Source of the DNA: Verrucomicrobiota bacterium
GTDB taxonomy: Bacteria > Verrucomicrobiota > Verrucomicrobiia > Chthoniobacterales > UBA10450
Assembly: GCA_041167085.1 (NCBI GenBank)
Contig: JBEEGV010000028.1
Span: forward strand, 2,463-66,462
Direction: 5' to 3'
DNA length: 64,000 bases
Within the stretch, counting starts at the first letter, position 1. The number at the start of each line of letters is the position of its first letter. Positions 11,453 to 49,277 of the stretch are shown one piece after another. The translations under genes and the position numbers were made by a program. A model generated the notes under the pieces. That model saw only the letters and a list, made by a program, of their open reading frames with translations. It was not told the DNA's origin and ran no database searches.

Positions 11453-11464
11453 TAGGGAAAACGA

Positions 11465-34880: not shown

Positions 34881-35166
34881 GGGGAACCTGGTCCAGCGCG
34901 AAACGCCTAACGGCGTCGCAATTGGTTTTTCAGCCGGTTCATCCACGTACGCTGCAATCAGATGGGGACGTCGTTCACCTCGATGGGAGGGACGACCTGG
35001 TGTCGTCCCCATATGACCGACGAGACAAGCTCGTCCCTCCCCGATGACGGGCGAGGGTCAACCACGGCAATCTGATGTAGAGATTTCTGGCACTGTGTGA
35101 TGGCGATTGAGGTCAATCGCCGCTACCTCTACGTTGGCCGGAAGCTAAAGACTTCCGCGATGTACC

Positions 35167-36585
35167 ATGGCCGAACCGAACCCGCCAACAACTGACGGTT
35201 ACGACTCACCCACCGGACAACGTCCGCAGATGACCGGCGCTTTCGTGCCGACGGCAGCGAAACATGACCCTTACGCGGCGTTTCGGTCCCGCGGATATGC
35301 ATTTTTCACGATTGGGAATCTGCTCTCCATCATCGGCCGGCAAATGCTTGCGGTCGCGGTTGAATGGGAAATCTATGCGCGGACTCATTCTGCCACCGCC
35401 CTTGGACTTGTGGGTCTGGTGATTGCCGTCCCGGTGGTGGGTCTTTCGTTACCCGCTGGTCATCTGGCTGACCGATTCAGTCGAAAACGGATCATCATGG
35501 TTTCGCAAATTCTAAGTGCAATTGCCTCTGTCGTCCTGGCGCTTATCTCCTGGAAACATCTCGCCATTCCTAACGTGTCGATTTTGCGTGCCGGCAACAG
35601 AGGATTGCATGCCATCGCAGCTCTCTTTGAGCGACATCAATCCGCGTATCATTTCGATGATGGCTCCGTTCCGTTGATTTATTTTCTGCTCTTCATCTAC
35701 GGAGCAGTGCGGACATTTGGCTGGGCGGCGCGAAGCGCATTTTTTCCGAACCTGGTCCCGCGTAACGCCTTTTCTAATGCCGTGACTTGGAACAACAGCA
35801 TTTTCCAGATTGGATCAGTAGTGGGACCGGCCATTGGTGGCTTTCTCGTCGTTCACGCCGGTTTTCCAGTGGTTTATATTATTGATGCCCTGACGGCGTT
35901 TTCATTTTTTCTGCTTATCCTTCCCATTCCGCGCGGCAAACGCGTGGCTGATGAGAGTGGCCAGAGCACCTGGCATAGCCTGGTTGAGGGCATGCGCTTC
36001 GTCTTGGGCAAGCAGGTGATTCTGGCAACGATCACGCTCGACTTATTTGCGGTCTTGTTGGGAGGCGCGACGGCGTTGCTCCCAATTTTTGCCGATCAAA
36101 TTCTACATTGTGGCGCGATCGGGCTCGGTTGGATGCGGGCCGCGCCGGCCATCGGCGCGTTCGTCATGGCGCTGATGATTGCTTATCTGCCACCAATGCG
36201 ACATGCTGGGAAGGCATTGCTGTGGTGTGTCACCGGTTTCGGAATTGCCATCGTCATCTTTGGGTTATCGAAGGCTCTTTGGTTGTCGCTGGGCATGCTG
36301 TTTCTGGCCGGTGCGCTCGATAGTGTGAGTGTGATCATCCGTGGCTCAATTATTCAGCTGGTTACACCCGACAACATGCGAGGGCGCGTTTCCGCCGTGA
36401 ACAACATCTTTATCGGCACATCCAACGAATTCGGCGCGCTCGAGTCAGGCCTGACCGCCGCTCTCTTCGGACCGGTCGTTTCCGTCGTCGGCGGTGGTAT
36501 TGGCACCATCGTTACGGTATTGGCCGCGGCCTGGCGCTGGCCTGAAATCCGCAAGATCGGCGCGCTTGATAAGACCCTAAAGTAA
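35167..36585 (+). CDS. MFS transporter
   Basis: About 12 TM segments. Loop 2-3 motif GHLADRFSRKRI. Confidence 0.8.
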   Translation: MAEPNPPTTDGYDSPTGQRPQMTGAFVPTAAKHDPYAAFRSRGYAFFTIGNLLSIIGRQMLAVAVEWEIYARTHSATALGLVGLVIAVPVVGLSLPAGHLADRFSRKRIIMVSQILSAIASVVLALISWKHLAIPNVSILRAGNRGLHAIAALFERHQSAYHFDDGSVPLIYFLLFIYGAVRTFGWAARSAFFPNLVPRNAFSNAVTWNNSIFQIGSVVGPAIGGFLVVHAGFPVVYIIDALTAFSFFLLILPIPRGKRVADESGQSTWHSLVEGMRFVLGKQVILATITLDLFAVLLGGATALLPIFADQILHCGAIGLGWMRAAPAIGAFVMALMIAYLPPMRHAGKALLWCVTGFGIAIVIFGLSKALWLSLGMLFLAGALDSVSVIIRGSIIQLVTPDNMRGRVSAVNNIFIGTSNEFGALESGLTAALFGPVVSVVGGGIGTIVTVLAAAWRWPEIRKIGALDKTLK

Positions 36586-36630
36586 AGATTTTGAATTGTA
36601 GGGCGTCTGTGTCAGAGGCCAATAATTGAT

Positions 36631-36722
36631 GTAGCCACGCCGCTCTGTCGCCGTGCCGGTTGAACGCCCCGACCCACCTTCGCGTCGCTCCGGCGCGGCG
36701 GGCAGAGCGGGGCGGCTACACG
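36631..36722. repeat. ~95-bp hairpin element, copy A (GTAGCCAC...GGCTACAC)
   Basis: Near-identical to 47751-47849, sharing ...cgacccaccttcgcgtcgctccggcgcggcgggcagagcggggcggctacac. The arms gtagccacgccgctctgtcgccg and cggcgggcagagcggggcggctac are complementary. Confidence 0.85.
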
Positions 36723-36738
36723 AACCCGCGTCGGCCTT

Positions 36739-36767
36739 CCAGGTAGGGACGGTTCTCCGAACCGTCC
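36739..36767 (+). repeat. CAGGTAGGGACGG hairpin motif, copy 1
   Basis: ccaggtagggacggTTctccgAAccgtcc here, against tcaggtagggacggCTctccaAGccgtcc at 49278-49306. Confidence 0.8.
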
Positions 36768-36970
36768 GGGCGAGTAGGCCCAATTAAATCGATTATGAGC
36801 CGGATCAGCAGCAACAGCACGAGCACGAGCAGAAGCATTCCCTTTCCATTGGACGTTGAGCGTTGAGCGTTGAGCGTTTGCTTTTAGGCGGGAGAGGCAG
36901 CGTCTCCCAAACTATAGGGTCTCTGTGTCAGCCCCGAATGCTTTCGGGGGTTACAGAAACGGCCTGCAAA

Positions 36971-37888
36971 TCAAAAAGCGCCGTGCAACGAAAGCATGCC
37001 GTAAGGTGCGCTGCCATCTTCGTGAAATCGAATATTCGCGCGATAAAAATCAAAATTCCGATAGGGCTGATAACCGGCCTCGGCCGTTAGGATCACGTTG
37101 GGCGTGATTTTCCAGTCGGCGCCCAGGCCGGTGCGAACTTCACTGTAGGTAAGGACGGCATGGTTCAGGACTGGGTTTCCGTGCGAGTCGCCAAAGTGTT
37201 CGTCCACGCGAAAGTTGGTCTCTTTGACATTCGCGCCGAGATACAATGTCAGGCTTTTCGTCCCTTCGAATTCAATCCGCGGCTCCGGCAGCACAGCATT
37301 GACGACCCATTGCCGGGCAATCTTCCAGCGGACGCCCGCGGCGGGGAGCACAGGATACTTGCGCTCGATGTCGACGCTGACGCCGACAATGAACTGCAAG
37401 TTTGGATTATAGATATACGTGCCGCCTACGATGAAGGGCATGTTCACCTCATCAAAGCTGAGATGATTTGTGCCATAGAAACCGGGTTGAGCTTCGAGTC
37501 GGACAAGGATCGAATCGGAAAACTGCGTATCCAGTCCAACAATCAGGCTGGCGGATTGCAACGTATCGGGAAGAGGAGCGTTATTCGGCATGCCGAAATC
37601 GAAGCGCTCCCATTCCATCCCTATGCGTAAGACGCCGATTTTGATTCGCGGCGTCAGGACAAACCGCAAAATGATATCACTTTCCGAAAAATCCCGAACA
37701 ATCGTCCTTCCGCGTTCGACATCAGCGTCACCAATGTAAGTTGCTTCCGCGACGTATTCTCCGGTTAGGGAGAATATCGGCTTGAACGAACTGTCCGTTG
37801 TGTTTTCGTTCGCCTCCTCGCCCTGTGTGCCAGCCGAAATCGAGCCAAGAGCCACCACCATTCCCAGCAGTTGAACGAACCATTTCAT
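36971..37888 (-). CDS. outer-membrane beta-barrel protein (paralog of 44909-45823)
   Basis: Signal peptide MKWFVQLLGMVVALGSISA. Terminal LSLHGAF. Motifs shared with the paralog: ERFDFG/DRFDFS, LEAQPGFYG/LEVRPGFYT, LPAAGVRW/VPVAGFVW. Confidence 0.65.
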   Translation of the reverse strand: MKWFVQLLGMVVALGSISAGTQGEEANENTTDSSFKPIFSLTGEYVAEATYIGDADVERGRTIVRDFSESDIILRFVLTPRIKIGVLRIGMEWERFDFGMPNNAPLPDTLQSASLIVGLDTQFSDSILVRLEAQPGFYGTNHLSFDEVNMPFIVGGTYIYNPNLQFIVGVSVDIERKYPVLPAAGVRWKIARQWVVNAVLPEPRIEFEGTKSLTLYLGANVKETNFRVDEHFGDSHGNPVLNHAVLTYSEVRTGLGADWKITPNVILTAEAGYQPYRNFDFYRANIRFHEDGSAPYGMLSLHGAF

Positions 37889-37892
37889 ATCG

Positions 37893-38900
37893 TCAACGAC
37901 CTCCGGAATCGCGTCGAAACGTTGTGATGGCCCTGGCGATGTCTTTGACCATGACGGATTCGGAGGCCAGGCGTTCTACTCCATGTAGTGATTCAAGCGC
38001 GGCTGACGAAATCATATCTCCTCGCCATACCAGGGTAGAAGCTTTGCCCTCCACAGTCACCGGCCACATTTGATAAAGCGTGAGTGCAACATAATAACCG
38101 CCGCTCGCGTAGTAAAGCACATCAGCTGCTTGTCCGCTGTCGCTGCGCTTGTAAAAAGCGCCCAGGGTCAACACTCCCTGATCGTCCACGTCCATTAGTT
38201 CCCAATAAAGTTCGGGATTGATCCCACCGGGGCCGCGGCCAATTCCCGTCCCGTTGAGAAAGCCAGAAAAATGCTGGCGAATCTTGTCTTGCTGCTTCAA
38301 TAGAGCCTTCAGTTCTTCATTCGGACGAATGGCGTTGCCCGTGTGATCGTATGGAGGCTGGGCTGCGCTTCCACCCGAAACAAACAATTTCGCGCGCGCC
38401 GCGAGCAGGTCACTCCAAAAGGAGGCAACGGAGCCGCCCTTGAATTTCTTTGCTTCCGCCTCACTGATTTGGAGATCTCGGCTCATTTTTTTCGTAGCTT
38501 CAGTCAATGCCTGGCTCGGGCCATTGGCTAGAGCTCTATCCAATTTTGCGAAGAGATTCGCAGCGGTCGGAGAGGATGGGAGATCGCCGTGCAAAAAGAC
38601 TTTTAATTCCCGGTGTTGCGTTGGGTTCCATTGCCGGAGCGCCTCGAGCTGACGGGCAGGGGCACCGGGCGCGACGTAGCAGCTTTGCACGGAAAGATAT
38701 CGGCCGCTCGAGGGGGGACCATGCAGCGTTTTTACGTCGCTCTTGGCCAGCTCCGCCAGATCGATTCCGTCGAAGATGGAGAAGGATGCAAGCTCCGCGG
38801 CTGGATCGGCCGCCCGAATACGCGCAGCAAAGGAGGGGAGCAAAAGAATGAGCGCGAGGAATCTCGTGTATTGTCTCCGGCGCATAAATTGGAATCTCAT
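37893..38900 (-). CDS. secreted hypothetical protein
   Basis: Signal peptide FLALILLLPSFAARIRAADP. The 335-aa ORF ends 5 bp upstream of the barrel gene start. I recognised no motif. Confidence 0.6.
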   Translation of the reverse strand: MRFQFMRRRQYTRFLALILLLPSFAARIRAADPAAELASFSIFDGIDLAELAKSDVKTLHGPPSSGRYLSVQSCYVAPGAPARQLEALRQWNPTQHRELKVFLHGDLPSSPTAANLFAKLDRALANGPSQALTEATKKMSRDLQISEAEAKKFKGGSVASFWSDLLAARAKLFVSGGSAAQPPYDHTGNAIRPNEELKALLKQQDKIRQHFSGFLNGTGIGRGPGGINPELYWELMDVDDQGVLTLGAFYKRSDSGQAADVLYYASGGYYVALTLYQMWPVTVEGKASTLVWRGDMISSAALESLHGVERLASESVMVKDIARAITTFRRDSGGR

Positions 38901-38968
38901 AAGGCTAGTTAACTGCCCGCAGGCGATGGTTGCAAATTCGCAGGCATCAACGCAATTACGTTTTGAAA

Positions 38969-39913
38969 ATGAATCAACCGGTGATCGTGTTCAACCATCT
39001 CGGCAAGAGCTTCGGCAAACTGGAAGCCGTTCGCGATCTCTCATTCAGCATCGATTCGGCGGCGATTTTTGGTTTCCTGGGTGCTAACGGTGCGGGCAAA
39101 ACGACCACGATTCGTATGCTGTGCGGACTGACGCACCCGACAAGTGGAACGGCCACCATCGCTGGGCACGACGTTTGGAAAGATCGACACCGTGTGCGAG
39201 CGAAGTTTGGTTACGTCGCCCAACGCTTTAGTCTCTACCCCGACCTGACCGTGGAAGAGAATTTTCGTTTTTTCGGCGGCGCCTGCCGTGTGCCGGCCGC
39301 GGAACTGACGAGAAGAATCGCCGGTTTGCTTCGCCTGACCGATTTGGAAGGCAAGCGAGCGGTCCCGGCTGGAAGTTTATCCGGGGGAATGCGGCAGTTG
39401 CTCGCGCTGGGATGCGCCCTGGTTCACGATCCACCCCTGCTTTTTTTGGACGAGCCCACCTCGGGCCTGGATCCAGTACATCGGCAGCAAATCTGGAATT
39501 TGCTCTACGATTTGAGCAACGAGGGAAAAACGATCTTTGTCACAACCCATTACATGGATGAAGCGGAGCGCTGCACCGAAGTTGGCTTTCTGGAGAGCGG
39601 TCAACTTTTGGCCAAAGCACCGCCCCGGGAGCTTAAATCAAGCTTTCGCACCAAGTTGTTGGAAATCGAGGTCGAACCGGTCATGCCGGCATTGGTCCAG
39701 CTGCGAAATTTACCGGACGTGCTCGGGGTTTCCCTGCGCAGCGGCCGACTGCGGATTTTTGCGCAGGATCCGGAGGCTCTTCTGGCAAGTTGGCGTGATC
39801 GCTGGCCGCTTCACGACGCTCGACTGCTGAGCGACCGGTGGGTGGCCCCTGACATGGAAGACGTTTTCACCGCCTATTCGCAGCGTTACGACGCGTTATT
39901 AAACAAGCCATGA
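38969..39913 (+). CDS. ABC-2 type transporter ATP-binding protein
   Basis: Walker A GANGAGKTT, signature LSGGMRQ, Walker B LLFLDEPTSGLD. Confidence 0.9.
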   Translation: MNQPVIVFNHLGKSFGKLEAVRDLSFSIDSAAIFGFLGANGAGKTTTIRMLCGLTHPTSGTATIAGHDVWKDRHRVRAKFGYVAQRFSLYPDLTVEENFRFFGGACRVPAAELTRRIAGLLRLTDLEGKRAVPAGSLSGGMRQLLALGCALVHDPPLLFLDEPTSGLDPVHRQQIWNLLYDLSNEGKTIFVTTHYMDEAERCTEVGFLESGQLLAKAPPRELKSSFRTKLLEIEVEPVMPALVQLRNLPDVLGVSLRSGRLRIFAQDPEALLASWRDRWPLHDARLLSDRWVAPDMEDVFTAYSQRYDALLNKP

Positions 39914-41097
39914 TCAGGACGTCCTTCGGTGCGATTGCCAGCGTCGCTTACAAAGAGTTTTTGCATATCTACCGAGACCGACGGGTTCTGGCTTTGCTGC
40001 TCGTTCTTCCACCGTTGTTTACGTTGCTCTTTGGCCACGCCTTCGAGAACACCGAACTCACCAACGTTCCGTCCCTGCTGATCAATCGTGATCTCGTGTC
40101 GCGGACCGATCGGTTCGTGGAAATTATCTCGAAGAACCCAACCTTTCGCTGGCATCAAGGATCCGCTGACACCAAACAGGAAGCGGATTTGATCGGCCAC
40201 GGTGTCAAAGCAGTATTAATCATTCCCGCCGGCTGGAGCGACAGCCTGACGAATGGCAATCCTATGCCGCTGCCCCTTTATCTGGACGGGAGCGATACGA
40301 ATACGGCGTCCGCCGTAGAGGGAGCAGTGCAAAAAAGTTTGGCGGAGTTTCAGGTCAAAGAACGCGATGCCATCGTGGAATCCCTGCCGGATGAAGTCAT
40401 CGAGCTCGGCAAGAAACTGCCGGTGCAGGTCCGAAAACAATTCGTGTCGCTGATGGAAGCCTGGACGACGCGGAGCAAGATTCTTTACAATCCGACGTCG
40501 CGTTACATCGAGTACGTTATTCCCGGCATCATCGGTCTGATCCTGCAATTGCTCACTGTTACCTTGACGGCTTGCACGATCGCGCGGGAGCGGGAATCGG
40601 GCACCCTTTATCAATTGATGGTGACATCGCTGAAGCGCGGCGAAATCGTTATCGGCAAGATTCTGCCTTACCTTGCTGTCTCGATTTTTCTCATCGTGGT
40701 GATCACGGCAGTGGCCGGTTTGCATTTCCATGTTCAGTTTCATGAGCCGGCGATGCTGGCGTTGATCTGTCTGCTTTTCCTGCTCTGCTCACTCGGCCTT
40801 GGCCTGCTGATCTCGGCTTTTTCGCGCACGCAAACCCAGGCGATTCAATTCTCCGTTTTCTTTCTCTTACCCGTTTTTGTCCTCTCTGGCGCGTTCGCTC
40901 CCTTGGAGCAACTTCCAACTGCGGTTCGCTACGTCGCCGAAACTTTTCCACTGACGCATTTTTGCCGGGCTTTTCGGTTGGTGAACATGTATCGCGCGAG
41001 CCCCGGATTTTACGTTGTCGACCTGGTTGTGCTTTTCCTTGGAGCTCTCATCACGTTTTTGGGCGCGGCCTATTTGCTGAAGCGAATCGAAGAATAG
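39910..41097 (+). CDS. ABC-2 type transporter permease
   Basis: N-terminal TM, a large extracytoplasmic loop and 5 C-terminal TMs. ATGA overlap with the ATPase gene. Confidence 0.85.
   Translation: MIRTSFGAIASVAYKEFLHIYRDRRVLALLLVLPPLFTLLFGHAFENTELTNVPSLLINRDLVSRTDRFVEIISKNPTFRWHQGSADTKQEADLIGHGVKAVLIIPAGWSDSLTNGNPMPLPLYLDGSDTNTASAVEGAVQKSLAEFQVKERDAIVESLPDEVIELGKKLPVQVRKQFVSLMEAWTTRSKILYNPTSRYIEYVIPGIIGLILQLLTVTLTACTIARERESGTLYQLMVTSLKRGEIVIGKILPYLAVSIFLIVVITAVAGLHFHVQFHEPAMLALICLLFLLCSLGLGLLISAFSRTQTQAIQFSVFFLLPVFVLSGAFAPLEQLPTAVRYVAETFPLTHFCRAFRLVNMYRASPGFYVVDLVVLFLGALITFLGAAYLLKRIEE
41051..41097 (+). repeat. direct repeat copy 1 (the authentic 3' end of the ABC-2 permease gene)
   Basis: tcacgtttttgggcgcggcctatttgctgaagcgaatcgaagaatag is repeated at 44368-44413. 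Confidence 0.9.
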
Positions 41098-41323
41098 CTG
41101 GGCCAGCGGCGCCTCGTTATCGTTCAGGTAGTCAGGGAGGTCGTATGATGATACAATGTTCTCTGCCCATCAGACGACTGGATGGGTTGTGAGTTTCCGA
41201 TCCCTTTTTGATACTCACCGCCGTGAGCTTCCGCCGAAGCGGCCACATCGAGTAGAACGTGCGCGGAAAAGACGTGCAAAGTGAAGTTTTTATGTGTAAA
41301 ACGAAAACTCTGTTCCTTACCGG

Positions 41324-44308
41324 ATGAAAAATTGTCTTCGCGCGCTTCGGCGTTCTGCTCCTCTCCAACTTGCTGTTGGAGTGTTTCTTCTCGTCGTTCT
41401 GCCCCGGGCGGGACTCGCCGCCGATCGGCCACAATCTCCTGCAAGCATAGGCGCCAAGCTGGTAATCCACGCCGGAGCTGAGCCTCTTCACGGCGATCGG
41501 GATAGTCTTGTCCGGATGAGTCAGGCAACAGGTACAACCGAGCGCGCCACAGCAAACACGACAGCAGCGCCTGTAGCATCCCGATTTGTGCCAGCAACTC
41601 CAGGCCCTCAGCCGTTTTGGTATTACGCTGCTTTCGGCTCCGGCATTGGCGCGAGTAACATTGTCATTGGACCCATTTCTGCGGGTGGAGGAGCGCCGGA
41701 AATTCTCGTTGGCGGCAATTCCAATCACGATTCCGGCCTGGACGATTTTTGGCAGGCATTACGATATAACCCCACAACGGGCAATTATGACCAAATTTTC
41801 GTCAGCCCGATCTATCCCCAAAGTTATTATAACGCGGCCGTTATACGAATCGGGATCGCGAATATTATTGGCGATTCAAATCCGGAAATTGTCGCGATGT
41901 ACAATGACGGACGCATTCATATCTATGATTTCGCGACGAAAAAAGAACTCGGTTATATCGACACCGGGCATACCGACGTACAGGGACTGGCCTTGAGCGA
42001 TCTCGATGGTGACGGCCGCGCGGAGTTGCTCGTGACGACGCTAAACACCCTGCTCGTTTACAACGGCTCGGGTGACCTGCTTTGGCAAGTCGCAGGCGCG
42101 GGTGGCTCCGACGTAGTCGTGGGACAAATGGATAACGATCCCGCCTTGGAGATTGCCACGACGAATGGGGCGGTGGTTGATGTCGGTACTCATGCCGTGC
42201 AATGGACTCGTAGTGGCGGATTCGGGGCGCACCTGCGGCTGGCTCCGCTTCCGGGCGAAAACTACCAGCAACTAATTGGGGCTGTAACCGAGCAAGCGGC
42301 CAATGGATATCCCGCCTACTATGTCTATGCCTACGATATCGCCCGGCAGCTGCTTCGGTGGTCGATACCTTCTACATATCGTATCGACGCCGTTGAGGTA
42401 GCGGATGTGGACAACGATGGCACGCCGGAGGTGATACTCGGCGATGGGACCTTTAACAATAACCAATCCAGCACGGTGCATGTGCACGATCTGATTACGC
42501 AGGCGCAAAAGTGGGCGATCAATAATCCCGAACACGGGGTTACGAATATCGCCGTCGCCGACGTTAATGGAGATGGCGTTGTCGATCTCCTTTGGGGTGC
42601 TGGCGGGGATTTGGACAAGACAGCTCATCTTTACGTGGCAGACACAAACAACAGGCACGTTATTAACTGGCAAGACCTCGATCTGCGGGGGCCTTTTGTC
42701 GGGCCAGCAATTGGCGACCTCGACGGCGACGGTCAACCCGAGCTAGTAGTCTGCGCGTACACACAGGCGTCGAACGACTATAGCCAGAGCGGTGTCATTC
42801 TCGTATTCGACCTCGCAACTCTGACTCTACGGGCGGTGTCGCCGCCGGTGGTTGACGGTGGAGCAACTGCGATTCATGATCTGAAATTGCGCGATGTCAA
42901 TGGCGACGGACGCATGGAGATCGTGATCGCTTCGGAGTTCGGGTACGGGAATGCCGGTGTGATCGAGATTTATTCTTTCGACTCATCCAACGCATTTACG
43001 CGCATCTGGACAAACCCGACGCGGCCTCAGTATTCGCCTTTTAGCTTCGTAGAAGTGGCGGATCTCGACGGCAATGGGACTCAGGAAATCATCGCTGGAA
43101 GCACGGTTACAAGCAGCGCCGCGCCGGGTAGTTTCGTTTATATCTACGATTACCCTTCTACTACTCCCTGGACTTCGGTGAACTTCGGCGCATTTACCGG
43201 AGTCACCGGCTTGCTCGTTGACGATCTGGATGGAAATGGCAGCAAAGAGATCGTCGCGCTCATTTCCGGCCGTGACCTCTACACCTTCGATGGTCCGAGC
43301 CGCCAGTTACGGAATCTGCGGCAGGGTACCGGCTTCACGACGCTGGGCAATCGAGTTAGCGCGGCTGGCTTGGTCACGGGAGATAATGCAGCCGTGGGAC
43401 ATTTTCTGCGGTATGCCAGCAATAATTACACTGAAAATTTCCTACGTCAGTTCGGTCCGGTCGGAAGTGGCAACATCACTGGTATTAATGCGTTTCCGGA
43501 CGGCACGCTTTGGACCGCCAGCGCAGGTGTTCTGAATTTGCGTCTGCCGCCATCCTACAGTGGCGGGGCATGGACAAGCCCATTCATGGGCGATGGTTTC
43601 GGCCGCTTCGTCGCCACGGATATTCGCGACGGCCAGAACCGCGTTTTCAGCTCAGGAGGTCACATGGTAGCGGGCCTGGCTTACACGGTGAATGCAAATC
43701 CAACGCCTACTCCGGTTCCAACTCCGATTCCAATTCTCCTGCCAAAAGCGACTCTCCTGTCACCTGATGCGAATGCTGTTGTAACCTGCCCGCAAGACTT
43801 CAGTTGGCTCCTAAGTGATAACAGCAGCGTGCTAATCTATTTTGCCGCGTCGGCCAACCGCCCCGCGGGCTCAGTCGGGACAGCTGAATCGAATGCCGTC
43901 TATTCGGGCGGCGGTGTATTTTCCCTTACGCCCGACATATTCAGCGAGCTCGTTACAGATCTGGGAAGCAGCCCGACCTACTACTGGACGGTAGGCAACC
44001 CCAATTACACGCTGAAGCAACAATACGCCGATTGGCGGCCCTTCACTACGGCCCCTCCCACCTCGGCGCCGGTTATTTCTCCGAAAGGGCGTTCTTTTAA
44101 GCAAAAGACTTCCGTGAAGCTAACCGCTGCGCCTGGGGCAACAATTTACTATACTCTCGATAGCCACGTTCCAACCAGGTCCTCCTTGATTTACACTTCC
44201 CCAATTACCCTCACCGCCACGACGCCTATTTTCGCGAAGGCGGTTCAAACCGGGTACAATGACAGTGCCATCGTCTCGGCGCTGTTTGTGAAAAAGCGCG
44301 GCCACTAG
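41324..44308 (+). CDS. FG-GAP/VCBS repeat beta-propeller protein with C-terminal chitobiase/Fn3_assoc-like domain
   Basis: At least 7 Ca-binding FG-GAP loops: DLDGDGRAELLV, DVDNDGTPEVILG, DVNGDGVVDLLWG, DLDGDGQPELVVC, DVNGDGRMEIVIA, DLDGNGTQEIIAG, DLDGNGSKEIVAL. C-terminal ATIYYTLDSHVPTRSSLIYTSPITL. Confidence 0.85.
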   Translation: MKNCLRALRRSAPLQLAVGVFLLVVLPRAGLAADRPQSPASIGAKLVIHAGAEPLHGDRDSLVRMSQATGTTERATANTTAAPVASRFVPATPGPQPFWYYAAFGSGIGASNIVIGPISAGGGAPEILVGGNSNHDSGLDDFWQALRYNPTTGNYDQIFVSPIYPQSYYNAAVIRIGIANIIGDSNPEIVAMYNDGRIHIYDFATKKELGYIDTGHTDVQGLALSDLDGDGRAELLVTTLNTLLVYNGSGDLLWQVAGAGGSDVVVGQMDNDPALEIATTNGAVVDVGTHAVQWTRSGGFGAHLRLAPLPGENYQQLIGAVTEQAANGYPAYYVYAYDIARQLLRWSIPSTYRIDAVEVADVDNDGTPEVILGDGTFNNNQSSTVHVHDLITQAQKWAINNPEHGVTNIAVADVNGDGVVDLLWGAGGDLDKTAHLYVADTNNRHVINWQDLDLRGPFVGPAIGDLDGDGQPELVVCAYTQASNDYSQSGVILVFDLATLTLRAVSPPVVDGGATAIHDLKLRDVNGDGRMEIVIASEFGYGNAGVIEIYSFDSSNAFTRIWTNPTRPQYSPFSFVEVADLDGNGTQEIIAGSTVTSSAAPGSFVYIYDYPSTTPWTSVNFGAFTGVTGLLVDDLDGNGSKEIVALISGRDLYTFDGPSRQLRNLRQGTGFTTLGNRVSAAGLVTGDNAAVGHFLRYASNNYTENFLRQFGPVGSGNITGINAFPDGTLWTASAGVLNLRLPPSYSGGAWTSPFMGDGFGRFVATDIRDGQNRVFSSGGHMVAGLAYTVNANPTPTPVPTPIPILLPKATLLSPDANAVVTCPQDFSWLLSDNSSVLIYFAASANRPAGSVGTAESNAVYSGGGVFSLTPDIFSELVTDLGSSPTYYWTVGNPNYTLKQQYADWRPFTTAPPTSAPVISPKGRSFKQKTSVKLTAAPGATIYYTLDSHVPTRSSLIYTSPITLTATTPIFAKAVQTGYNDSAIVSALFVKKRGH

Positions 44309-44367
44309 CAAATAGTCAGGCTTTACTTGCATCAGTCTTTTGGTGCTGCCGCTGCCCGGCGCGCTGG

Positions 44368-44413
44368 TCACTTTTTGGGCGCGGCCTATTTGCTAAAGCG
44401 AATCGAAGAATAA
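44368..44413 (+). repeat. direct repeat copy 2 (orphan copy of the permease 3' end)
   Basis: tcactttttgggcgcggcctatttgctaaagcgaatcgaagaataag still encodes FLGAAYLLKRIEE-stop, with only synonymous changes (ctg>cta, tag>taa). Confidence 0.9.
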
Positions 44414-44501
44414 GTTAATCGAAGGCATCGAGAAATGATTCGACTGGAATCTCCCGAAGCAGGCGACAGATCGATGGCCCGAGAATAATTTTGGATCAGT
44501 A

Positions 44502-44912
44502 ATGAAAACGAAAGTGCTCAGTTTACTCTGCGGACTCCTGTTTGTGGGTGCCTGCTCATTGCCTGCCGCGCCGATAAGACCGCGGGAGGCCGCCAATTCA
44601 ACCCCACAACAGGTGTTCGAGGGCATGCGCGGGAGCTTCCTGCCGGACAAAGCCAAAGGAGTCCAAGCATGCTACCAATTCGATCTGAGCGGACCGAACG
44701 GCGGACGATGGTGGATCGAAGTGAATGACGGAAAATGCCGGATCGAACGGGGAACAATTCACAATCCCGGCGTCACCTTTCTGGCGAGCGATCGCGATTG
44801 GGTGGCGCTTTCGAACGGAAAACTCCCGGGTTTTTGGGCGTATCTTACCGGCCGGTTAAAGATACACGGCGATCAAAAGCTGGCGCGGAAACTGGATGAA
44901 ATGTTCCGCTAG
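44502..44912 (+). CDS. secreted SCP2 (sterol/lipid carrier) domain protein
   Basis: Signal peptide MKTKVLSLLCGLLFVGACS. SCP2-like WWIEVNDGKCRIERG ... GKLPGFWAYLTGRLKIHGDQKLARKLDEMF. Confidence 0.7.
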   Translation: MKTKVLSLLCGLLFVGACSLPAAPIRPREAANSTPQQVFEGMRGSFLPDKAKGVQACYQFDLSGPNGGRWWIEVNDGKCRIERGTIHNPGVTFLASDRDWVALSNGKLPGFWAYLTGRLKIHGDQKLARKLDEMFR

Positions 44913-45823
44913 AACCTCGCCTTGATCTCGAGGCGCACGTACGGGGAAGGGTCCGTGCGGTAATTCTCCCCCGCGCGATGGAACAAGAAGGCGCGCTCAA
45001 TGGAATAGCCGGCGCCTAGATCGATGTCGATCTCGTTCCTCGGTGACCAGACAATCCCACCACCGGCGCGATAATCTTCAAAATCGACCTGCGTGCCGCT
45101 CAATTTTCCTACGTGCGGAATTCCCAGGAATGAATCGTGATGATCGGTCCGGAAGGAGCCGCCCTCGATCTCTCCACCAAGATAGAGGTCGATCTGCCGG
45201 TTGAGGGAATAAATTGCCCTCGGTTCCGACGGGACGGCCATGATGCGGAATTGTTTGTTAGGCACCCAAACAAAGCCGGCGACCGGCACGATACCTATCC
45301 CGCCCCGGAGAAAGCTATAATTGGCCCCGGTCAATATGTAGAGTTTGTTCGGCTGCAGAACCCAGAAGCGAATCAGCGTGATGGGACAATCAAACGAGGC
45401 CAGGCCGAGATGTTCTTCCGTGTAGAATCCGGGCCGCACCTCAAGCATCGCGCCAATATCCTGCCCATGCATGTAATCAACGCTGAAGACGGCGGCGCCG
45501 CTTTGCAGATGCACCGGCACTGGCGCGGTCGTGTTGCTAAAATCAAAGCGGTCGTAAGCGGCACCGGCGCGTGCGTACCAGTTCCCGGTAATCTCAAACC
45601 GATGGGCGTAGTAGAAGTGGTTCTGGATCTCGTCTTGCTGGCCGAAGCTGCCGCCGTGATTAAGGTCGCTTCCGAAAACGTAGGTATTCTCTGTATCGAA
45701 AATATCGATCGGGACCGACTTGGTCGTTTCGCTCGTCGTTATTTCGGGTTCCGTTCCACCCCGCGCGATTGCCGCGAGAAAAAGTGCCAGTACGATCCCG
45801 AATTGCGCGCCTGATAATTTCAT
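44909..45823 (-). CDS. outer-membrane beta-barrel protein (paralog of 36971-37888)
   Basis: Signal peptide MKLSGAQFGIVLALFLAAIA. Terminal RLEIKARF. Its stop overlaps the SCP2 gene stop (ctag). Confidence 0.65.
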   Translation of the reverse strand: MKLSGAQFGIVLALFLAAIARGGTEPEITTSETTKSVPIDIFDTENTYVFGSDLNHGGSFGQQDEIQNHFYYAHRFEITGNWYARAGAAYDRFDFSNTTAPVPVHLQSGAAVFSVDYMHGQDIGAMLEVRPGFYTEEHLGLASFDCPITLIRFWVLQPNKLYILTGANYSFLRGGIGIVPVAGFVWVPNKQFRIMAVPSEPRAIYSLNRQIDLYLGGEIEGGSFRTDHHDSFLGIPHVGKLSGTQVDFEDYRAGGGIVWSPRNEIDIDLGAGYSIERAFLFHRAGENYRTDPSPYVRLEIKARF

Positions 45824-46156
45824 GTTGGAAAGCTGTCTAGTGTATTCGGGCGAATTGCACAACCGAGATGTTTACTTGTGACCAATTTTGCGCAAACAGC
45901 GAGATTGCCAAAGCCGCTTATCCAGCGTAGGCCGCGCGCTTACTCGGGGTAAAGAGGCTGGAAGCGGTTGCACAATAAAGTTCGCGATGCAACCATCCCG
46001 CCATTGCCCTCATCCTAACCTTCTCCCTGGGGGAGAAGGAACCACGTCTCCCGTTTCTCTCCCACTGGGAGAGACGGACGCGAAGCGCCAGTGCGGGCAC
46101 CGGAGCGGGTATAGCAGAGGGCTGCGCTGAGGGTTCCTCGAATTTTGCCACCACAT

Positions 46157-46912
46157 CTAAAACGAAATCGGCTCGCCAATTTTCGCAACGCGCTGTTCCG
46201 CCTGGACCTCACGCTTTTTTAGTTCGCGCTCAAATTGCTCCGGCGTACCGGTCAGGACTGGAAACGTCCCGTAATGCATTGGAATGACAATCGCCGGATT
46301 CACAAGTTTGACTGCATCGGCCGCGCGGTCCGGTCCCATCGTGAAATGGTCACCAATGCAAACCATCATCACATCAATCTTGTTGTAGCTGGCGACGAGC
46401 GCCATGTCGGAGAAAAGATCTGTATCTCCCGTGTGATAAAATGTTGGTCCGCCGCGGAGCGCAATGACCATTCCGCTCGGATTCCCCCCGTAGATCGGCG
46501 GCGCGTTGTCGTCCTTCGTCACGCCGGCGCCATGCCATGCCGGAACAAATGTGATCCGTACCTCACCGTCCAAAAGGTGTAATGTTCCACCGAAGTGGCC
46601 GGTCGTGTCGGAATCGGCCAGCTCACTTGGATAACCAAGCGCGCTCGTCATCGCGGCGGATAAATCGAACGTGGCGACAAGCTTCGCCTGGGTGCGCTTC
46701 CCGATCTCGACCGCATCGCCCACATGGTCTGAGTGTCCATGCGTGATCAGAATCAAATCGACGCGCTTCAGATTCGCCAGATCGCTTTTGCCGGACGGAT
46801 TCTTTGGATTGGTTATCCAGGGATCGATCAGAAGCACGTTTCCAGCAGGTGTGACGATTTTGAAGGCGGATTGCCCATACCAGGTCAGATGAGTTTGAGC
46901 CATGGTGACCAC
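46157..46912 (-). CDS. metal-dependent hydrolase, MBL fold (UPF0173-like)
   Basis: LITHGHSDHVGD motif, plus later HTGDT and PMHYGTF ligand motifs. Confidence 0.85.
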   Translation of the reverse strand: MVTMAQTHLTWYGQSAFKIVTPAGNVLLIDPWITNPKNPSGKSDLANLKRVDLILITHGHSDHVGDAVEIGKRTQAKLVATFDLSAAMTSALGYPSELADSDTTGHFGGTLHLLDGEVRITFVPAWHGAGVTKDDNAPPIYGGNPSGMVIALRGGPTFYHTGDTDLFSDMALVASYNKIDVMMVCIGDHFTMGPDRAADAVKLVNPAIVIPMHYGTFPVLTGTPEQFERELKKREVQAEQRVAKIGEPISF

Positions 46913-46942
46913 GGAATCGAAAATCCGTCTTCAATCAAGGCT

Positions 46943-47041
46943 AATGACGAAGCACGAATGTCGAAGCACGAAGGAATGTCAAAATCCGAATGATTCGAGC
47001 TTCGGCATTGTTTCGTCATTCGACATTCGAGCTTCGGCATT
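46943..47041. repeat. imperfect palindrome (CGAAGCACGAATGTCGAAG type) in a divergent promoter region
   Basis: aatgacgaagcacgaatgtcgaagcacgaagg matches the reverse complement of gtttcgtcattcgacattcgagcttcggcatt. A related cttcgtgcacttcgtgtccttcgtgg lies at 50486-50511. Confidence 0.7.
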
Positions 47042-47057
47042 TTATTAAGCTTGAGAA

Positions 47058-47696
47058 ATGGATCATGAACATGCCCATCGGCATATCGCTGGCAGCGATG
47101 CGCGCCTGGCTCACCTGATCGCTCGATCGCGCCGTTACGATATCACGCCCGCGTTGAGCGTCCGGCCTTTCGATGCGTTGGCTGAGTCGATCGCTTATCA
47201 GCAGCTAAGCGGCAAGGCCGCCGCCACCATCTGGGGTCGGGTGCGTGCACTTTATCCGCGGAAAAAATTTCTCGATCCGAAGCTTGTTCTGGCCACGCCC
47301 GACGCGAAACTGCGCGGCGCTGGTTTGTCCGGCAGTAAGGTCGCCGCGCTGAAGGATCTCGCCGCGAAAACCATCGACGGAACCGTGCCCACTGGTCGTG
47401 CGTTGGCGAAAATGACCGATGACGAGATCGTTGAGCGTCTGATTGCCGTTCGCGGCATCGGTCGTTGGACGGTCGAGATGCTGTTGCTCTTTGATCTTGG
47501 TCGCCCGGATGTCTGGCCGGTTCATGACTACGGCGTCCGCAAAGGGTTCGCCAAGATCTTCGGTAAAAGAAAACTCCCCACACCGAAACAGCTGATGAAG
47601 CTCGGCGAAAAATGGCGGCCGTATCGCTCCGTCGCGGCATGGTACTGTTGGCGGGCGCTGGATAAGGCGGAAGAAGGCAAGAAGCTTAAGCGTTGA
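47058..47696 (+). CDS. DNA-3-methyladenine glycosylase II-like (HhH-GPD superfamily)
   Basis: HhH LIAVRGIGRWTVEMLLLF and catalytic Asp region WPVHDYGVRKG. Confidence 0.8.
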   Translation: MDHEHAHRHIAGSDARLAHLIARSRRYDITPALSVRPFDALAESIAYQQLSGKAAATIWGRVRALYPRKKFLDPKLVLATPDAKLRGAGLSGSKVAALKDLAAKTIDGTVPTGRALAKMTDDEIVERLIAVRGIGRWTVEMLLLFDLGRPDVWPVHDYGVRKGFAKIFGKRKLPTPKQLMKLGEKWRPYRSVAAWYCWRALDKAEEGKKLKR

Positions 47697-47750
47697 AGCG
47701 TTGAAGGGGTTGAAGCGTTGAGAGACGGAGCGCACGCCCATTGTAACGAT

Positions 47751-47849
47751 GTGTAGCCACGGCGCTCTCTGTCGCCGTGTCTGGGTAGAAACGCCCCCGA
47801 CCCACCTTCGCGTCGCTCCGGCGCGGCGGGCAGAGCGGGGCGGCTACAC
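47751..47849. repeat. ~95-bp hairpin element, copy B
   Basis: gtgtagccacggcgctctctgtcgccgtg...cggcgggcagagcggggcggctacac. See copy A at 36631-36722. A degenerate third copy lies at 50157-50228. Confidence 0.85.
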
Positions 47850-47960
47850 CACCAGCGCTTATGAGACAGCCTGTGATCCCATGTAATTCCCTCGCCTGTT
47901 TAATACGCGCGAAAAGCGCGGAATTGACTTTCCGGTCAGCGCTAACTAAAACGCGGTCTT

Positions 47961-48848
47961 ATGGCTATGATCCATGTTAATCGCAGTGGCACGAGCCTTG
48001 GGACATTTTCAGAAGAGGATGTGCGCGAAGGTCTCCGCGCTGGACGGTTTGTTTCTACCGACCTCGGCTGGCGCGAAGGGATGCCGCAATGGCTGCCATT
48101 GTCGCAGTTTCCGGAATTTGGGACCGCAGCGACAGGGTCGCCGCCGCCGGCACCGGCTGACGGATCGCCAAGTCCGGCGGGACCGCCCAGTATTCCTTCA
48201 GTCGTCGTGCAACCGCGCAGCGGTCTGCCGTGGGAACATCGCGAGCAGCGGGGCTTTTTCAATGCCTTTGCCGAGACGTTATCAATGGTTCTGACCCGGC
48301 CGGGCACGGCTTTTTCGGTGATGCGCACGGAAGGCGGTTTTGGAGAACCGCTGCTTTATGCCGTGATCGGTGGCGGCATCGGCGTCATCGTATGGTTCTG
48401 TCTTTCGCTGGTGCTCAACTCGCTCGGTGTTCTCGGCAATCGCGAGGATGCGTTGGGTTCAATGATGGGAATGACAGCGAGCTCGATGATCTTCGTCTGG
48501 CGTTTGGTCGCGATCGCGCTCATCCCGTTTATTTTTGGTGGATTAGTCCATGGCAGCTTGATGCTGCTGGGCGGCGCCCGGAAAGGTTTTGAAACGACAT
48601 TTCGCGTCATCGCATTTTCACAAGGCTCGACTGCGCCCCTGCAATTGGTGCCCTGTTGCGGTGGACTTGCGTATCTCGTTTGGAATCTTGTCGCCAATTG
48701 CATCGGAATCGCGCGCGCGCATGAGATCGATTCCGGGCGCGCCACGTTGGCGGTGTTGCTGCCATTGATCCTCTGTTGCGGCGGAGGTTTGTTTCTTCTC
48801 TTCATGTTCGGCGGATTGGCCGCGCTGAGCCACAATTGGAATAATTGA
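47961..48848 (+). CDS. GYF_2 (DUF4339) domain + Yip1-like membrane protein
   Basis: N-terminal GTFSEEDVREGLRAGRFVSTDLGWREGMPQWLPLSQFPEF, a Pro-rich linker, then 5 TM segments. Confidence 0.6.
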   Translation: MAMIHVNRSGTSLGTFSEEDVREGLRAGRFVSTDLGWREGMPQWLPLSQFPEFGTAATGSPPPAPADGSPSPAGPPSIPSVVVQPRSGLPWEHREQRGFFNAFAETLSMVLTRPGTAFSVMRTEGGFGEPLLYAVIGGGIGVIVWFCLSLVLNSLGVLGNREDALGSMMGMTASSMIFVWRLVAIALIPFIFGGLVHGSLMLLGGARKGFETTFRVIAFSQGSTAPLQLVPCCGGLAYLVWNLVANCIGIARAHEIDSGRATLAVLLPLILCCGGGLFLLFMFGGLAALSHNWNN

Positions 48849-48852
48849 TACC

Positions 48853-49275
48853 GTGCACATCGTCGCGCGCCCGCTCGCGCCGGATGAAACTGACTACGAA
48901 TTGATTACACTGAGCGTTTCGCTTGGTTTTCTTTTTCTTGCGGTTGGCTGGTTCGCCATGCATTTGCCCTGGCCGATCTGCGCATTCCATGCGCTCACCG
49001 GGCATCCGTGCGCAACCTGCGGAGCGACACGGTCAGCCATCGCTTTCTTCCACGCTCAATTCCTCACGGCATGGAAGTGGAATCCACTAGCGTTCCTTGC
49101 CTACTGCGCGCTGTCGGTTTTCAACGCGTATGCATTCTTCGTGCTGGTTCTGCGCAGGCGGCGTCTCCGCGTGACAAATCTTACCGAAAACCAAAGGAAC
49201 GTTACCCGTATCGCCATCCTGGCCTCGATCGCTCTCAACTGGCTTTACTTGCTCTTCGCAAATCCAAGTCTCTGA
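48853..49275 (+). CDS. DUF2752 domain membrane protein
   Basis: Signature CAFHALTGHPCATCGATRS followed by TM segments. GTG start. Confidence 0.65.
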   Translation: MHIVARPLAPDETDYELITLSVSLGFLFLAVGWFAMHLPWPICAFHALTGHPCATCGATRSAIAFFHAQFLTAWKWNPLAFLAYCALSVFNAYAFFVLVLRRRRLRVTNLTENQRNVTRIAILASIALNWLYLLFANPSL

Positions 49276-49277
49276 AT

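What the first reader, a model, noticed from the sequence alone, without database searches (positions are those of the whole stretch)
41051..44413. The FG-GAP gene sits between direct repeats of the ABC-2 permease 3' end: an insertion scar without a recognisable mobility gene
Seen in sequence: the last 47 nt of the permease gene (41051-41097, ...acg ttt ttg ggc gcg gcc tat ttg ctg aag cga atc gaa gaa tag) recur at 44368-44413. The only differences are one 1-nt deletion, ctg>cta and tag>taa. The orphan copy therefore still reads FLGAAYLLKRIEE-stop, but nothing upstream of it resembles the permease. The two copies bracket a 3.27-kb segment that contains only the 994-aa FG-GAP/VCBS gene and its upstream region. 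Established: integrative elements that target the 3' end of a gene regenerate that end and leave a partial duplicate (attL/attR). Inference: the FG-GAP gene arrived as an inserted cassette between the permease gene and the SCP2 gene. Alternatively, a second permease copy was almost completely replaced. No integrase, transposase or terminal inverted repeat is visible, so the mechanism is unclear.
Basis: partly seen in the sequence, partly recalled or inferred. Interest (0 to 1): 0.6.

Follow-up and report, generated by a model that had tools for sequence, protein, structure and literature searches.

The report
Gene insertion scar at permease end
A 3.3-kb piece of DNA carrying one secreted propeller-protein gene was spliced into the last 46 bases of a transporter gene in this soil Verrucomicrobium; it rebuilt that gene's end and pushed the old end aside, which is a clear but mechanistically ordinary scar of gene acquisition.

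Summary
The repeat is real. Window 41051-41097 recurs at 44368-44413 (40/41 in the ungapped core). It has only these two copies in the 4.25-Mb genome.

Relatives settle the polarity. A sister lineage about 91.5% identical (L021, L022, L023) and more distant family members have the permease gene followed directly by the spacer and SCP2. These empty sites lack exactly 3,316 nt. Three strains (the window, L016, L024) have the filled site.

The orphan continues upstream for about 18 more codons of permease-like sequence, which are in frame in L016. That block is only 27/51 identical to the native gene, with differences mostly at third codon positions. The adjacent 46 nt are 43/46 identical to the native gene. 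This is far too uneven for decay of one duplicate. The insert therefore brought its own foreign permease-end relic, joined in register to the native end.

Best reading: a circular DNA carrying a permease-end fragment integrated by a single crossover (Campbell-type insertion-duplication). The enzyme is unknown, and there is no recombinase, terminal inverted repeat or other copy of the repeat.

The scan has already met several similar gene-end scars on other DNA. In passing: the middle of the FG-GAP gene is a hypervariable mosaic between conspecific strains. Interest is low to moderate.

The parts
38930..39913 (+). ABC transporter ATPase gene, first gene of the conserved ATPase-permease(-SCP2) unit
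   Evidence: PF00005, E 1e-31. Syntenic in all relatives.
39910..41097 (+). ABC-2 permease gene (395 aa), intact. It is the target gene of the insertion.
   Evidence: PF12698/PF01061. 70-82% aa identity to orthologues in relatives.
41051..41097 (+). Repeat copy 1: the last 47 nt of the permease gene including TAG (the attL-like junction). The homology with empty sites ends at the G of the stop codon.
   Evidence: The last 46 nt are 46/46 identical to the permease end in the empty-site lineage L021.
41098..41323 (+). 226-nt leader of the insert, upstream of the FG-GAP gene. No counterpart in empty sites or elsewhere.
   Evidence: Absent from L021/L022/L023. No match in the own genome, in relatives' loci or in loci of FG-GAP homologues. 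A 33-mer has 0 hits in the genome and metagenome collections. 97.8% identical to L016. The minus-strand ORF called here is spurious, because strain differences are synonymous only in the + frame.
41324..44308 (+). Cargo gene: a 994-aa secreted FG-GAP/VCBS beta-propeller protein with a C-terminal CHB_HEX_C_1/Fn3_assoc domain.
   Evidence: PF13517 E 9e-29, PF01839, PF13290. Signal-peptide-like N-terminus (read from the sequence). The closest non-conspecific homologues are 53-63% identical and lie in unrelated contexts.
42100..43700 (+). Hypervariable mosaic core of the FG-GAP gene (about aa 271-792).
   Evidence: 64-79% nt identity and 71% aa identity to strain L016, while the flanks are 97-100% identical.
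44316..44371 (+). Relic: a diverged, decaying fragment of a foreign permease 3' region (about 18 codons). It is carried by the insert and joined in register to copy 2.
   Evidence: Protein-level extension score 36 against a null maximum of 23-24. In frame in L016. 27/51 nt identical to the native gene, while native G000 against native L021 is 48/51. Differences by codon position are 6/5/13.
44368..44413 (+). Repeat copy 2 (orphan): the displaced, now non-coding permease end (the attR-like junction).
   Evidence: 43/46 identical to the native end in L016, with a further 1-nt loss in the T-run in this genome. It continues into the native spacer, as in empty sites.
44414..44501 (+). Native permease-SCP2 spacer.
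   Evidence: 78/92 identical to the spacer that directly follows the permease stop in L021.
44502..44912 (+). SCP2-family gene with a signal peptide, the ancestral downstream neighbour of the permease gene.
   Evidence: PF02036, E 4e-17. Directly follows the permease gene in L021, L022, G003, G002, G014, G013, G022, G011 and G015.

Best explanation
The FG-GAP gene is a lineage-specific insertion of 3,316 nt. The insert consists of a 226-nt leader, the gene, 7 nt, and a 56-nt relic of a foreign permease end.

Proposed mechanism:
- The insert entered the chromosome by one reciprocal crossover inside the last ~46 nt of the ABC-2 permease gene.
- The partner was a circular (or 'ends-in') DNA that carried its own permease-3'-end fragment. 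This is Campbell-type integration, also called insertion-duplication.
- The crossover left an intact permease gene (copy 1). It displaced the original last 46 nt, still attached to the native spacer and SCP2, to the far side of the insert (copy 2).
- The displaced end is now non-coding and decaying.
- The permease-like block left of copy 2 was never part of this genome's permease gene. It travelled with the insert from an earlier, diverged host locus. This implies the cassette was linked to a permease gene end before it arrived here.
- I take the enzyme to be the host's homologous-recombination machinery acting on the short identical stretch, because no dedicated recombinase is present.

Shown: the insertion, its exact limits, the duplication, the two-tier identity, and the absence of mobility genes.
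Inferred: the circular intermediate, the enzyme, and the earlier host.
For: 1. Empty sites. L021/L022/L023 are about 91.5% identical to the window. Window 37481-41097 and 44368-46099 are contiguous in them, overlapping by the 46-nt repeat. More distant relatives are also empty.
2. Filled sites occur only in three near-identical strains: the window, L016 and L024.
3. Copy 1 is 46/46 identical to the native end of L021. Copy 2 is 43/46 identical and runs on into the native spacer, which is 78/92 identical to L021's spacer. Three changes in 46 nt match the neutral yardstick of about 7.5% per lineage, taken from the spacer and from 59/396 third positions of the permease gene.
4. The adjoining relic is only 27/51 identical to the native gene. 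Fisher p = 8e-6 against the 46-nt block, and P(>=24/51 differences at a rate of 0.15) = 6e-8. It is nevertheless clearly permease-like at the protein level, in register, and in frame in L016.
5. The relic's differences fall 6/5/13 on codon positions 1/2/3 (p = 0.006). This is the signature of divergence as a functional gene, not of decay of a local duplicate.
6. The geometry is that of single-crossover integration of a circle carrying a gene-end fragment: a complete upstream copy and a 5'-truncated downstream copy. Experimental precedent: single crossovers duplicated 109-950 bp of the lacZ end in E. coli (PMC3240628).
7. There is no recombinase on the contig, no terminal inverted repeat and no further copy of the repeat.
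8. Homeologous recombination does act on this locus. The FG-GAP core is a mosaic between conspecific strains.
Against: - 46 nt of identity is close to the lower limit for RecA-type recombination (from memory, roughly 25-30 bp in E. coli), so such an event would be rare.
- A single homologous crossover with a uniformly diverged donor fragment does not by itself give copy 1 a fully native last 46 nt. The model needs the circle's 46 nt to have been near-identical to the target already, or mismatch or gap repair at the junction.
- No donor was found. No known permease matches the relic better than the resident one. No FG-GAP homologue elsewhere sits next to a permease or SCP2 gene.
- The identity block ends exactly at the stop codon and has the same length class (46 nt) as the att repeats of this genome's integrase islands (37-47 nt). 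That fits a site-specific system equally well.
Confidence: 0.5

Rival explanations
1. Site-specific integration. The segment is a recombinase-less remnant or hitch-hiker (CIME-like) whose attL and attR are the two 46-nt copies. It was integrated by a tyrosine or serine recombinase encoded elsewhere, or by one since deleted from a once larger island. The element-borne gene end is kept identical because it must rebuild the host gene, while the part left of the crossover decays freely.
For: - Direct repeats at a gene's 3' end that regenerate the gene, with clean empty sites.
- The identity stops exactly at the stop codon.
- The repeat length equals that of the three genuine tRNA-targeting integrase islands of the same genome (37, 44 and 47 nt).
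- The two-tier pattern (relic plus identical core) is what repeated use of one crossover point would produce.
- Known parallels: e14 in icd with the icdC fragment (PMC13626634); SGI1 at the 3' end of trmE (PMC8409611); CIMEs retain attL/attR without integration genes (PMC6323972).
Against: - There is no recombinase in the 3.3-kb segment or on contig C28. The nine PF00589 hits in the genome lie on other contigs.
- No other copy of the 46-nt sequence exists anywhere in the genome, so no cognate element is resident.
- No inverted-repeat core is evident.
- The genuine islands here are 16-26 kb, sit at tRNA genes and keep their integrase next to the tRNA.
- No other cargo was found at this site in 14 relatives.
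Confidence: 0.22
2. Linear-DNA capture during double-strand-break repair or transformation (like homology-facilitated illegitimate recombination). The right end of an incoming linear fragment, ending in a foreign permease-like stretch, paired with the resident permease end and primed copying of the native 46 nt. The left end was joined illegitimately just after the stop codon.
For: - It explains why both 46-nt copies are of native type while the relic is foreign.
- It explains the in-register right junction.
- HFIR is documented for short foreign DNA with one homologous anchor (PMC3240628).
Against: - HFIR typically deletes recipient DNA and shows 3-10-bp microhomology at the illegitimate joint (PMC3240628). 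Here nothing is deleted, 46 nt are duplicated, and no microhomology is visible at 41097/41098.
- An illegitimate left joint falling exactly at the stop codon would be a coincidence.
- The anchor would have been only about 53% identical.
Confidence: 0.13
3. In-situ history. An old local duplication of the permease end (or a second permease paralogue later overwritten by the FG-GAP gene) decayed, and a recent short gene conversion from the live gene refreshed its last 46 nt.
For: - The orphan is a decaying fragment with indels: a 3-nt insertion and T-run slippage.
Against: - No relative has a second permease gene or an orphan end. This holds for 14 genomes with 12 kb downstream and for the empty sister lineage.
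- The relic's divergence (47%) equals or exceeds family-level divergence (25-36/51 identical between the native gene and relatives). An in-situ duplicate would therefore predate lineages that show clean empty sites.
- The third-position bias of the differences argues for divergence as a working gene.
- A conversion tract ending exactly where homology ends has no homologous partner on its right side.
Confidence: 0.05
4. Chance similarity, or a member of a dispersed repeat family unrelated to the permease gene.
For: The genome is rich in short dispersed repeats: 314 nearby direct pairs in the self-comparison.
Against: - There are only two copies in 4.25 Mb, at E about 2e-14.
- One copy is the gene's own end, and the other continues as permease-like sequence.
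- Empty sites differ by exactly the bracketed segment.
Confidence: 0.01

Closest known systems
Campbell-type single-crossover integration (insertion-duplication) of a circular DNA carrying a gene-end fragment; seen experimentally as lacZ-end duplications in E. coli conjugation (PMC3240628)
   Same: - The insert is flanked by direct copies of the shared fragment.
- The upstream gene copy is complete and the downstream copy is a 5'-truncated stub.
- No element-encoded recombinase is needed.
- Empty and filled sites differ by the insert plus one repeat.
   Different: - The identical stretch here is only about 46 nt, against 109-950 bp in the experiment.
- The event is natural, not selected in the laboratory.
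- The insert carries an extra, strongly diverged upstream part of the gene end, the relic.
- Neither the circle nor RecA dependence has been shown.
Integrative elements that use the 3' end of a protein-coding gene and bring a replacement end: e14 / phage 21 in icd of E. coli with the icdC fragment (PMC13626634 and Hill et al. 1989 cited there); SGI1 at the 3' end of trmE (PMC8409611)
   Same: - The live gene runs into the inserted DNA.
- The displaced original end survives as a pseudogene fragment on the far side.
- The repeats mark attL and attR.
   Different: - Those elements are 15-40 kb and encode their own integrase and excisionase.
- Here the insert is 3.3 kb with one cargo gene and no recombinase.
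CIMEs (cis-mobilizable elements), defined as elements that have lost integration and transfer genes but retain attL and attR (PMC6323972)
   Same: A short segment bounded by att-like direct repeats, with no integration or transfer genes.
   Different: - CIMEs are recognised by their relation to a cognate ICE or IME that uses the same att site.
- No such element, and no other copy of the repeat, is present in this genome.
- No cognate element was found at this site in 14 relatives.
Homology-facilitated illegitimate recombination (PMC3240628 and references there)
   Same: Acquisition of foreign DNA anchored by a short homologous stretch, without mobile-element functions.
   Different: HFIR normally deletes recipient DNA and leaves one microhomology joint. 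Here nothing is lost and 46 nt are duplicated.

Membership tests
Integrase-mediated integrative element (attL/attR island) | Direct repeats at both ends, one of them being the end of the target gene, which is regenerated | tested here: met
   41051-41097 and 44368-44413. The permease ORF is intact.
Integrase-mediated integrative element (attL/attR island) | Empty sites in relatives that differ by exactly the element plus one repeat | tested here: met
   L021/L022/L023; also G003, G002, G014 and others.
Integrase-mediated integrative element (attL/attR island) | A tyrosine or serine recombinase gene inside the element, next to one att site | tested here: not met
   The only long ORF is the FG-GAP gene. 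There is no PF00589 hit on contig C28. The genome's three genuine islands do have one. Serine recombinases were not searched genome-wide.
Integrase-mediated integrative element (attL/attR island) | Excision to a circular form with an attP junction | not testable with these tools
CIME (cis-mobilizable element) | attL and attR retained, integration and transfer genes lost | tested here: inconclusive
   The repeats are present and the genes absent, but whether the repeats are recombinase sites is unknown.
CIME (cis-mobilizable element) | A cognate ICE or IME using the same att site exists in the genome or in relatives | tested here: not met
   No other copy of the 46-nt sequence in the genome. 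No other insert with an orphan end at this site in 14 relatives.
Campbell-type single-crossover integration (insertion-duplication) | The shared fragment is duplicated in direct orientation around the insert, with a complete upstream copy and a 5'-truncated downstream copy | tested here: met
Campbell-type single-crossover integration (insertion-duplication) | The insert carries its own homologue of the target, joined in register | tested here: met
   Relic at 44316-44371: permease-like, in register, in frame in L016, and not of native type.
Campbell-type single-crossover integration (insertion-duplication) | Circular donor molecule; dependence on host homologous recombination | not testable with these tools
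   Needs reads or an experiment.
Homology-facilitated illegitimate recombination | One homologous junction plus one illegitimate junction with 3-10-bp microhomology, usually with deletion of recipient DNA (PMC3240628) | tested here: not met
   No recipient DNA is missing relative to L021. Instead 46 nt are duplicated. No microhomology was seen at 41097/41098.
Transposon / insertion sequence | Transposase gene, terminal inverted repeats, short (2-14 bp) target duplication | tested here: not met
   No terminal inverted repeat among 32 inverted pairs. No transposase domain. The duplication is 46 nt.
Dispersed repeat (REP/MITE-like) | Many copies in the genome | tested here: not met
   Two copies only.

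The most novel reading that the evidence does not exclude
The 3.3-kb segment may be a recombinase-less 'gene-end-homing' cassette. On this reading it has moved more than once between orthologous ABC-2 permease loci of different soil Verrucomicrobia. It would use only the short conserved permease end that it carries, plus host recombination or a recombinase acting in trans. The decayed relic would be a fossil of a former host. Together with the similar scars this scan has met at other gene ends, it would point to a widespread, unnamed route of single-gene transfer.
Probability: 0.15. Interest if true: 0.6.

Novelty: new member of a known kind. Interest (0 to 1): 0.3.

Why it matters
The locus is an unusually legible record of how one accessory gene entered a conserved operon without any visible mobile-element machinery.
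- Both junctions are resolved to the base.
- The ancestral empty site is available at 91.5% identity.
- The displaced gene end gives an internal clock: 3 changes in 46 nt, against about 7.5% neutral change per lineage.

The foreign relic shows that the incoming DNA already carried a permease-end fragment. Short gene-end homology, not a transposase or integrase, may therefore have guided the insertion. If this is general, such scars could be used to date and trace single-gene transfers in uncultured bacteria.

For the biology of the organism, a hypervariable secreted propeller protein has been wired into an envelope ABC-exporter/SCP2 module.

Tried and rejected
- DNA-level extension of the repeat upstream: not significant on its own (p about 0.08). 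Only the protein-level test shows it.
- Composition as a test of foreignness: uninformative. FG-GAP codon-usage distance is at the 30th percentile, GC 0.557, GC3 0.585 (6th percentile).
- Search for the relic's donor. A chimeric permease query, scored on its last 44 residues against 5.8 billion proteins, found no permease closer to the relic than the resident one. L020, which shares the Tyr codon, has neither SCP2 nor FG-GAP downstream. P0128 gave no DNA.
- Contexts of FG-GAP homologues (P0003, P0004, P0007, G008, L025): all unrelated, with no permease or SCP2, no flanking repeats and no permease-like stubs.
- Exact-word scans of public collections: 0 hits for the orphan-spacer junction (metagenome contigs) and for a 33-mer of the leader (genome and metagenome contigs). 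Near-identical records are withheld by these tools.
- Genome-wide screen for similar two-copy repeats (30-150 nt, >=90% identical, within 30 kb). Only the permease pair has one copy ending at a gene's stop with an orphan partner. The C57, C50 and C39 candidates are hairpin-like intergenic repeats. Three perfect pairs turned out to be classical tRNA/integrase islands.
- Rfam and promoter/terminator scans of 40.8-44.7 kb: nothing above chance.
- A minus-strand ORF over the leader (called as a gene in L016): rejected, because strain differences are non-synonymous in it.
- The stop-codon read-through idea. The FG-GAP TAG is in frame with the orphan's last 13 codons in this genome only. In L016 the frames differ, so this is coincidence.
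No read-level test for empty alleles or circles was possible.
- PDB sequence search and NCBIfam for the FG-GAP protein: no informative hit.
Full report
**1. The observation**

The window carries, on the + strand, these genes:
- an ABC ATPase gene (38930-39913);
- an ABC-2 permease gene (39910-41097);
- a 994-aa FG-GAP/VCBS propeller gene with a CHB_HEX_C_1 tail (41324-44308);
- an SCP2 gene (44502-44912).

The permease gene's last 47 nt (41051-41097) recur at 44368-44413. The core 41056-41096 / 44372-44412 is 40/41 identical, at a spacing of 3,316 nt.

Against the whole 4.25-Mb assembly, each copy finds only the other (E about 2e-14). All other hits are 13-17-nt words. The repeat is therefore real, unique and not a dispersed element.

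**2. Polarity: this is an insertion**

Among 40 relatives, the unit up335(-) / ATPase / permease / SCP2 / down317(-) is common. The permease gene is followed directly by SCP2 in two same-genus genomes (G003, G002) and in G014, G013, G022, G011 and G015. A good FG-GAP homologue exists only in G008, at another locus.

The protein database then gave much closer material.
- L016 is a JGI contig collinear with window 33708-52302. Its flanking genes are 98-99.5% identical, and it has the same filled site.
- L024 is a third filled strain.
- L021, L022 and L023 belong to a sister lineage about 91.5% identical, and their site is empty. L021 6-3655 matches window 37481-41097, and L021 3609-5350 matches window 44368-46099. 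The two flanks are thus contiguous and overlap by exactly the 46-nt repeat.

The empty site reads ...ATCACGTTTTTGGGCGCGGCCTATTTGCTGAAGCGAATCGAAGAATAG|GTTCATCGAAAGG... It continues with a spacer 78/92 identical to window 44414-44501.

So 3,316 nt were inserted in the lineage of the window. All more distant relatives are empty, which makes gain more parsimonious than loss.

**3. The new finding: a two-tier orphan**

This is not so.

In the continuing frame, the 56 nt before copy 2 read SGFTCISLLVLPLPGALVT. The native gene reads SPGFYVVDLVVLFLGALIT. An anchored BLOSUM62 extension scores 36 against the native C-terminus, and 15-29 against eleven relatives. The best of 3,000 random genomic 57-mers scores 23-24.

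In L016 the position that is deleted here is a G>T change. There the whole orphan is one open frame, SGFTCTGLLVLPLPGALVTFLGAAYLLKRIEE*. The window's version has since lost one T of the run. That frameshift shows the stub is not under coding constraint.

The two parts of the orphan have very different histories.
- The last 46 nt are 43/46 identical to the native end (L016 version).
- The preceding 51 aligned nt are only 27/51 identical (Fisher p = 8e-6).

The sister lineage supplies a neutral yardstick. The spacer differs at 14/92 positions and the permease third positions at 59/396. That is about 15% between the lineages, or about 7.5% per lineage.
- Three changes in 46 nt fit neutral decay since an insertion after that split (P = 0.54 at 7.5%).
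- Twenty-four changes in 51 nt do not fit (P = 6e-8 even at 15%).

The native block itself is 48/51 identical between the window and L021. The relic's differences fall 6/5/13 on codon positions 1/2/3 (p = 0.006), as expected for divergence while the sequence was part of a working gene. The relic is about as far from every family member (19-29/51 identical) as from the resident gene.

An in-situ duplicate that old would predate lineages that have clean empty sites. The relic is therefore foreign. It came in with the insert and is joined, in register, to native-type sequence.

**4. Anatomy of the event**

Relative to the empty site, the filled site reads in this order:
1. native permease, including its last 46 nt (46/46 identical to L021);
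2. the 226-nt leader;
3. the FG-GAP gene;
4. 7 nt;
5. the 56-nt foreign permease-end relic;
6. a native-type 46 nt that is now decaying;
7. the native spacer;
8. SCP2.

A complete upstream copy, a 5'-truncated downstream copy and an insert-borne homologue in register are the signature of one reciprocal crossover. The partners would be the chromosome and a circular (or ends-in) molecule that carries a fragment of the gene's end.

The same product was recovered experimentally in E. coli. Most recombinants of a plasmid bearing a lacZ-end fragment were single crossovers that duplicated 109-950 bp of that end (PMC3240628).

Nothing in the segment suggests its own mobility:
- one cargo gene;
- no terminal inverted repeats;
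- no Rfam hit, and no promoter or terminator signal above chance;
- no tyrosine recombinase on the contig.

**5. Which enzyme?**

The genome offers internal controls. Three perfect direct-repeat pairs of 37, 47 and 44 nt bracket islands of 16-26 kb at tRNA-Gly, tRNA-Arg and tRNA-Glu. Each island has a PF00589 integrase next to the intact tRNA gene. The permease scar shares only the repeat length with them.

I therefore favour host homologous recombination on the short identical stretch (0.5). The site-specific reading, a CIME-like element or the remnant of a larger island, stays a serious rival (0.22).
- The identity ends exactly at the stop codon.
- A relic left of a fixed crossover point is what repeated integrations would leave.
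- Known parallels are e14 in icd with the icdC fragment (PMC13626634), SGI1 at the trmE 3' end (PMC8409611) and CIMEs (PMC6323972).

A linear-DNA, HFIR-like route is less likely (0.13). Nothing is deleted, and the left joint sits exactly at the stop codon.

Old in-situ duplication plus gene conversion, or a replaced second permease copy, is disfavoured by the empty relatives (0.05).

**6. The donor was not found**

- No permease in 5.8 billion proteins matches the relic better than the resident one.
- FG-GAP homologues at 53-63% identity lie in unrelated neighbourhoods, without permease, SCP2, stubs or flanking repeats.
- Exact words of the leader and of the orphan-spacer junction have no hits in the public contig collections. 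Near-identical records are withheld by those tools.
- Composition does not flag the insert, so the source was probably a related Verrucomicrobium.

**7. Context**

The slot downstream of this permease gene is variable in the family. G023 has the glyoxylate-shunt genes aceB-aceA-aceK there. G008 has a CHAT-domain protein and a DUF900 hydrolase. Several genomes lack SCP2. None of these shows an orphan end.

Inside the cargo gene, residues 271-792 are only 71% identical between the window and L016. Residues 1-270 are 96% identical and residues 793-994 are 100% identical. This is a recombination mosaic typical of exposed proteins. It is also direct evidence that diverged DNA recombines into this locus.

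**8. Verdict**

The thing is a natural insertion-duplication scar at a gene end, a known kind. This scan has already recorded several similar cases on other DNA (MATE, rmuC, xer, pheT, hsdS and ychF ends).

What is particular here is the resolution: base-exact junctions, an empty site at 91.5% identity, and a foreign relic that shows the cassette was linked to a permease end before it arrived.

Noticed in passing
window 42100-43700 (FG-GAP gene, aa ~271-792): The central propeller part of the FG-GAP gene is only 64-79% (nt) and 71% (aa) identical between the window and the conspecific strain L016. The gene's ends and all flanking genes are 96-100% identical. Either allele is almost as far from the other as from homologues in other genomes (60-67%). 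This is a sharp-edged recombination mosaic and suggests diversifying selection on a surface protein.
   Followed up: partly
own genome: G000 C57 13190-29718; C55 12876-29452; C30 133492-159323: Three classical integrative islands (16.5, 16.5 and 25.8 kb) are bounded by perfect 37-, 47- and 44-nt direct repeats. The repeats are the ends of tRNA-Gly(GCC), tRNA-Arg(TCT) and tRNA-Glu(TTC). Each island has a tyrosine-integrase gene next to the intact tRNA gene.
   Followed up: partly
L034 (G023:C4) 488-5138; L033 (G008:C3) 8243-12051: The slot directly downstream of the orthologous permease gene is variable in the family. G023 has aceB-aceA-aceK (malate synthase, isocitrate lyase, AceK) there. G008 has a CHAT-domain protein plus a DUF900 hydrolase. 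Other genomes have SCP2 or nothing. No flanking repeats were found in these.
   Followed up: partly
own genome: G000 C50 121935-121980 and 125835-125880: A unique 46-nt direct repeat (93% identical, with a CCGGT...ACCGG hairpin) brackets a single 1,139-aa secreted-looking gene downstream of a LacI-like regulator gene. It looks like a regulatory or intergenic element rather than a gene-end duplicate.
   Followed up: no
window 44306-44413: In this genome the 1-nt loss in the T-run puts the orphan's last 13 codons in frame with the FG-GAP stop codon TAG. Read-through would add 35 residues ending in FLGAAYLLKRIEE. In L016 the frames differ, so this is most likely coincidence.
   Followed up: yes
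window 43700-44308 (FG-GAP aa 793-994): The C-terminal ~200 residues (including CHB_HEX_C_1/Fn3_assoc) are not shared with the 53-63% identical propeller homologues (15-24% identity there). They do occur on another protein of G002 (L015, 35-40% identity). This indicates domain shuffling in the family.
   Followed up: no
window 36630-36720 and 47752-47849: A ~95-nt dispersed repeat showed up as secondary BLAST hits between L016 and the window.
   Followed up: no
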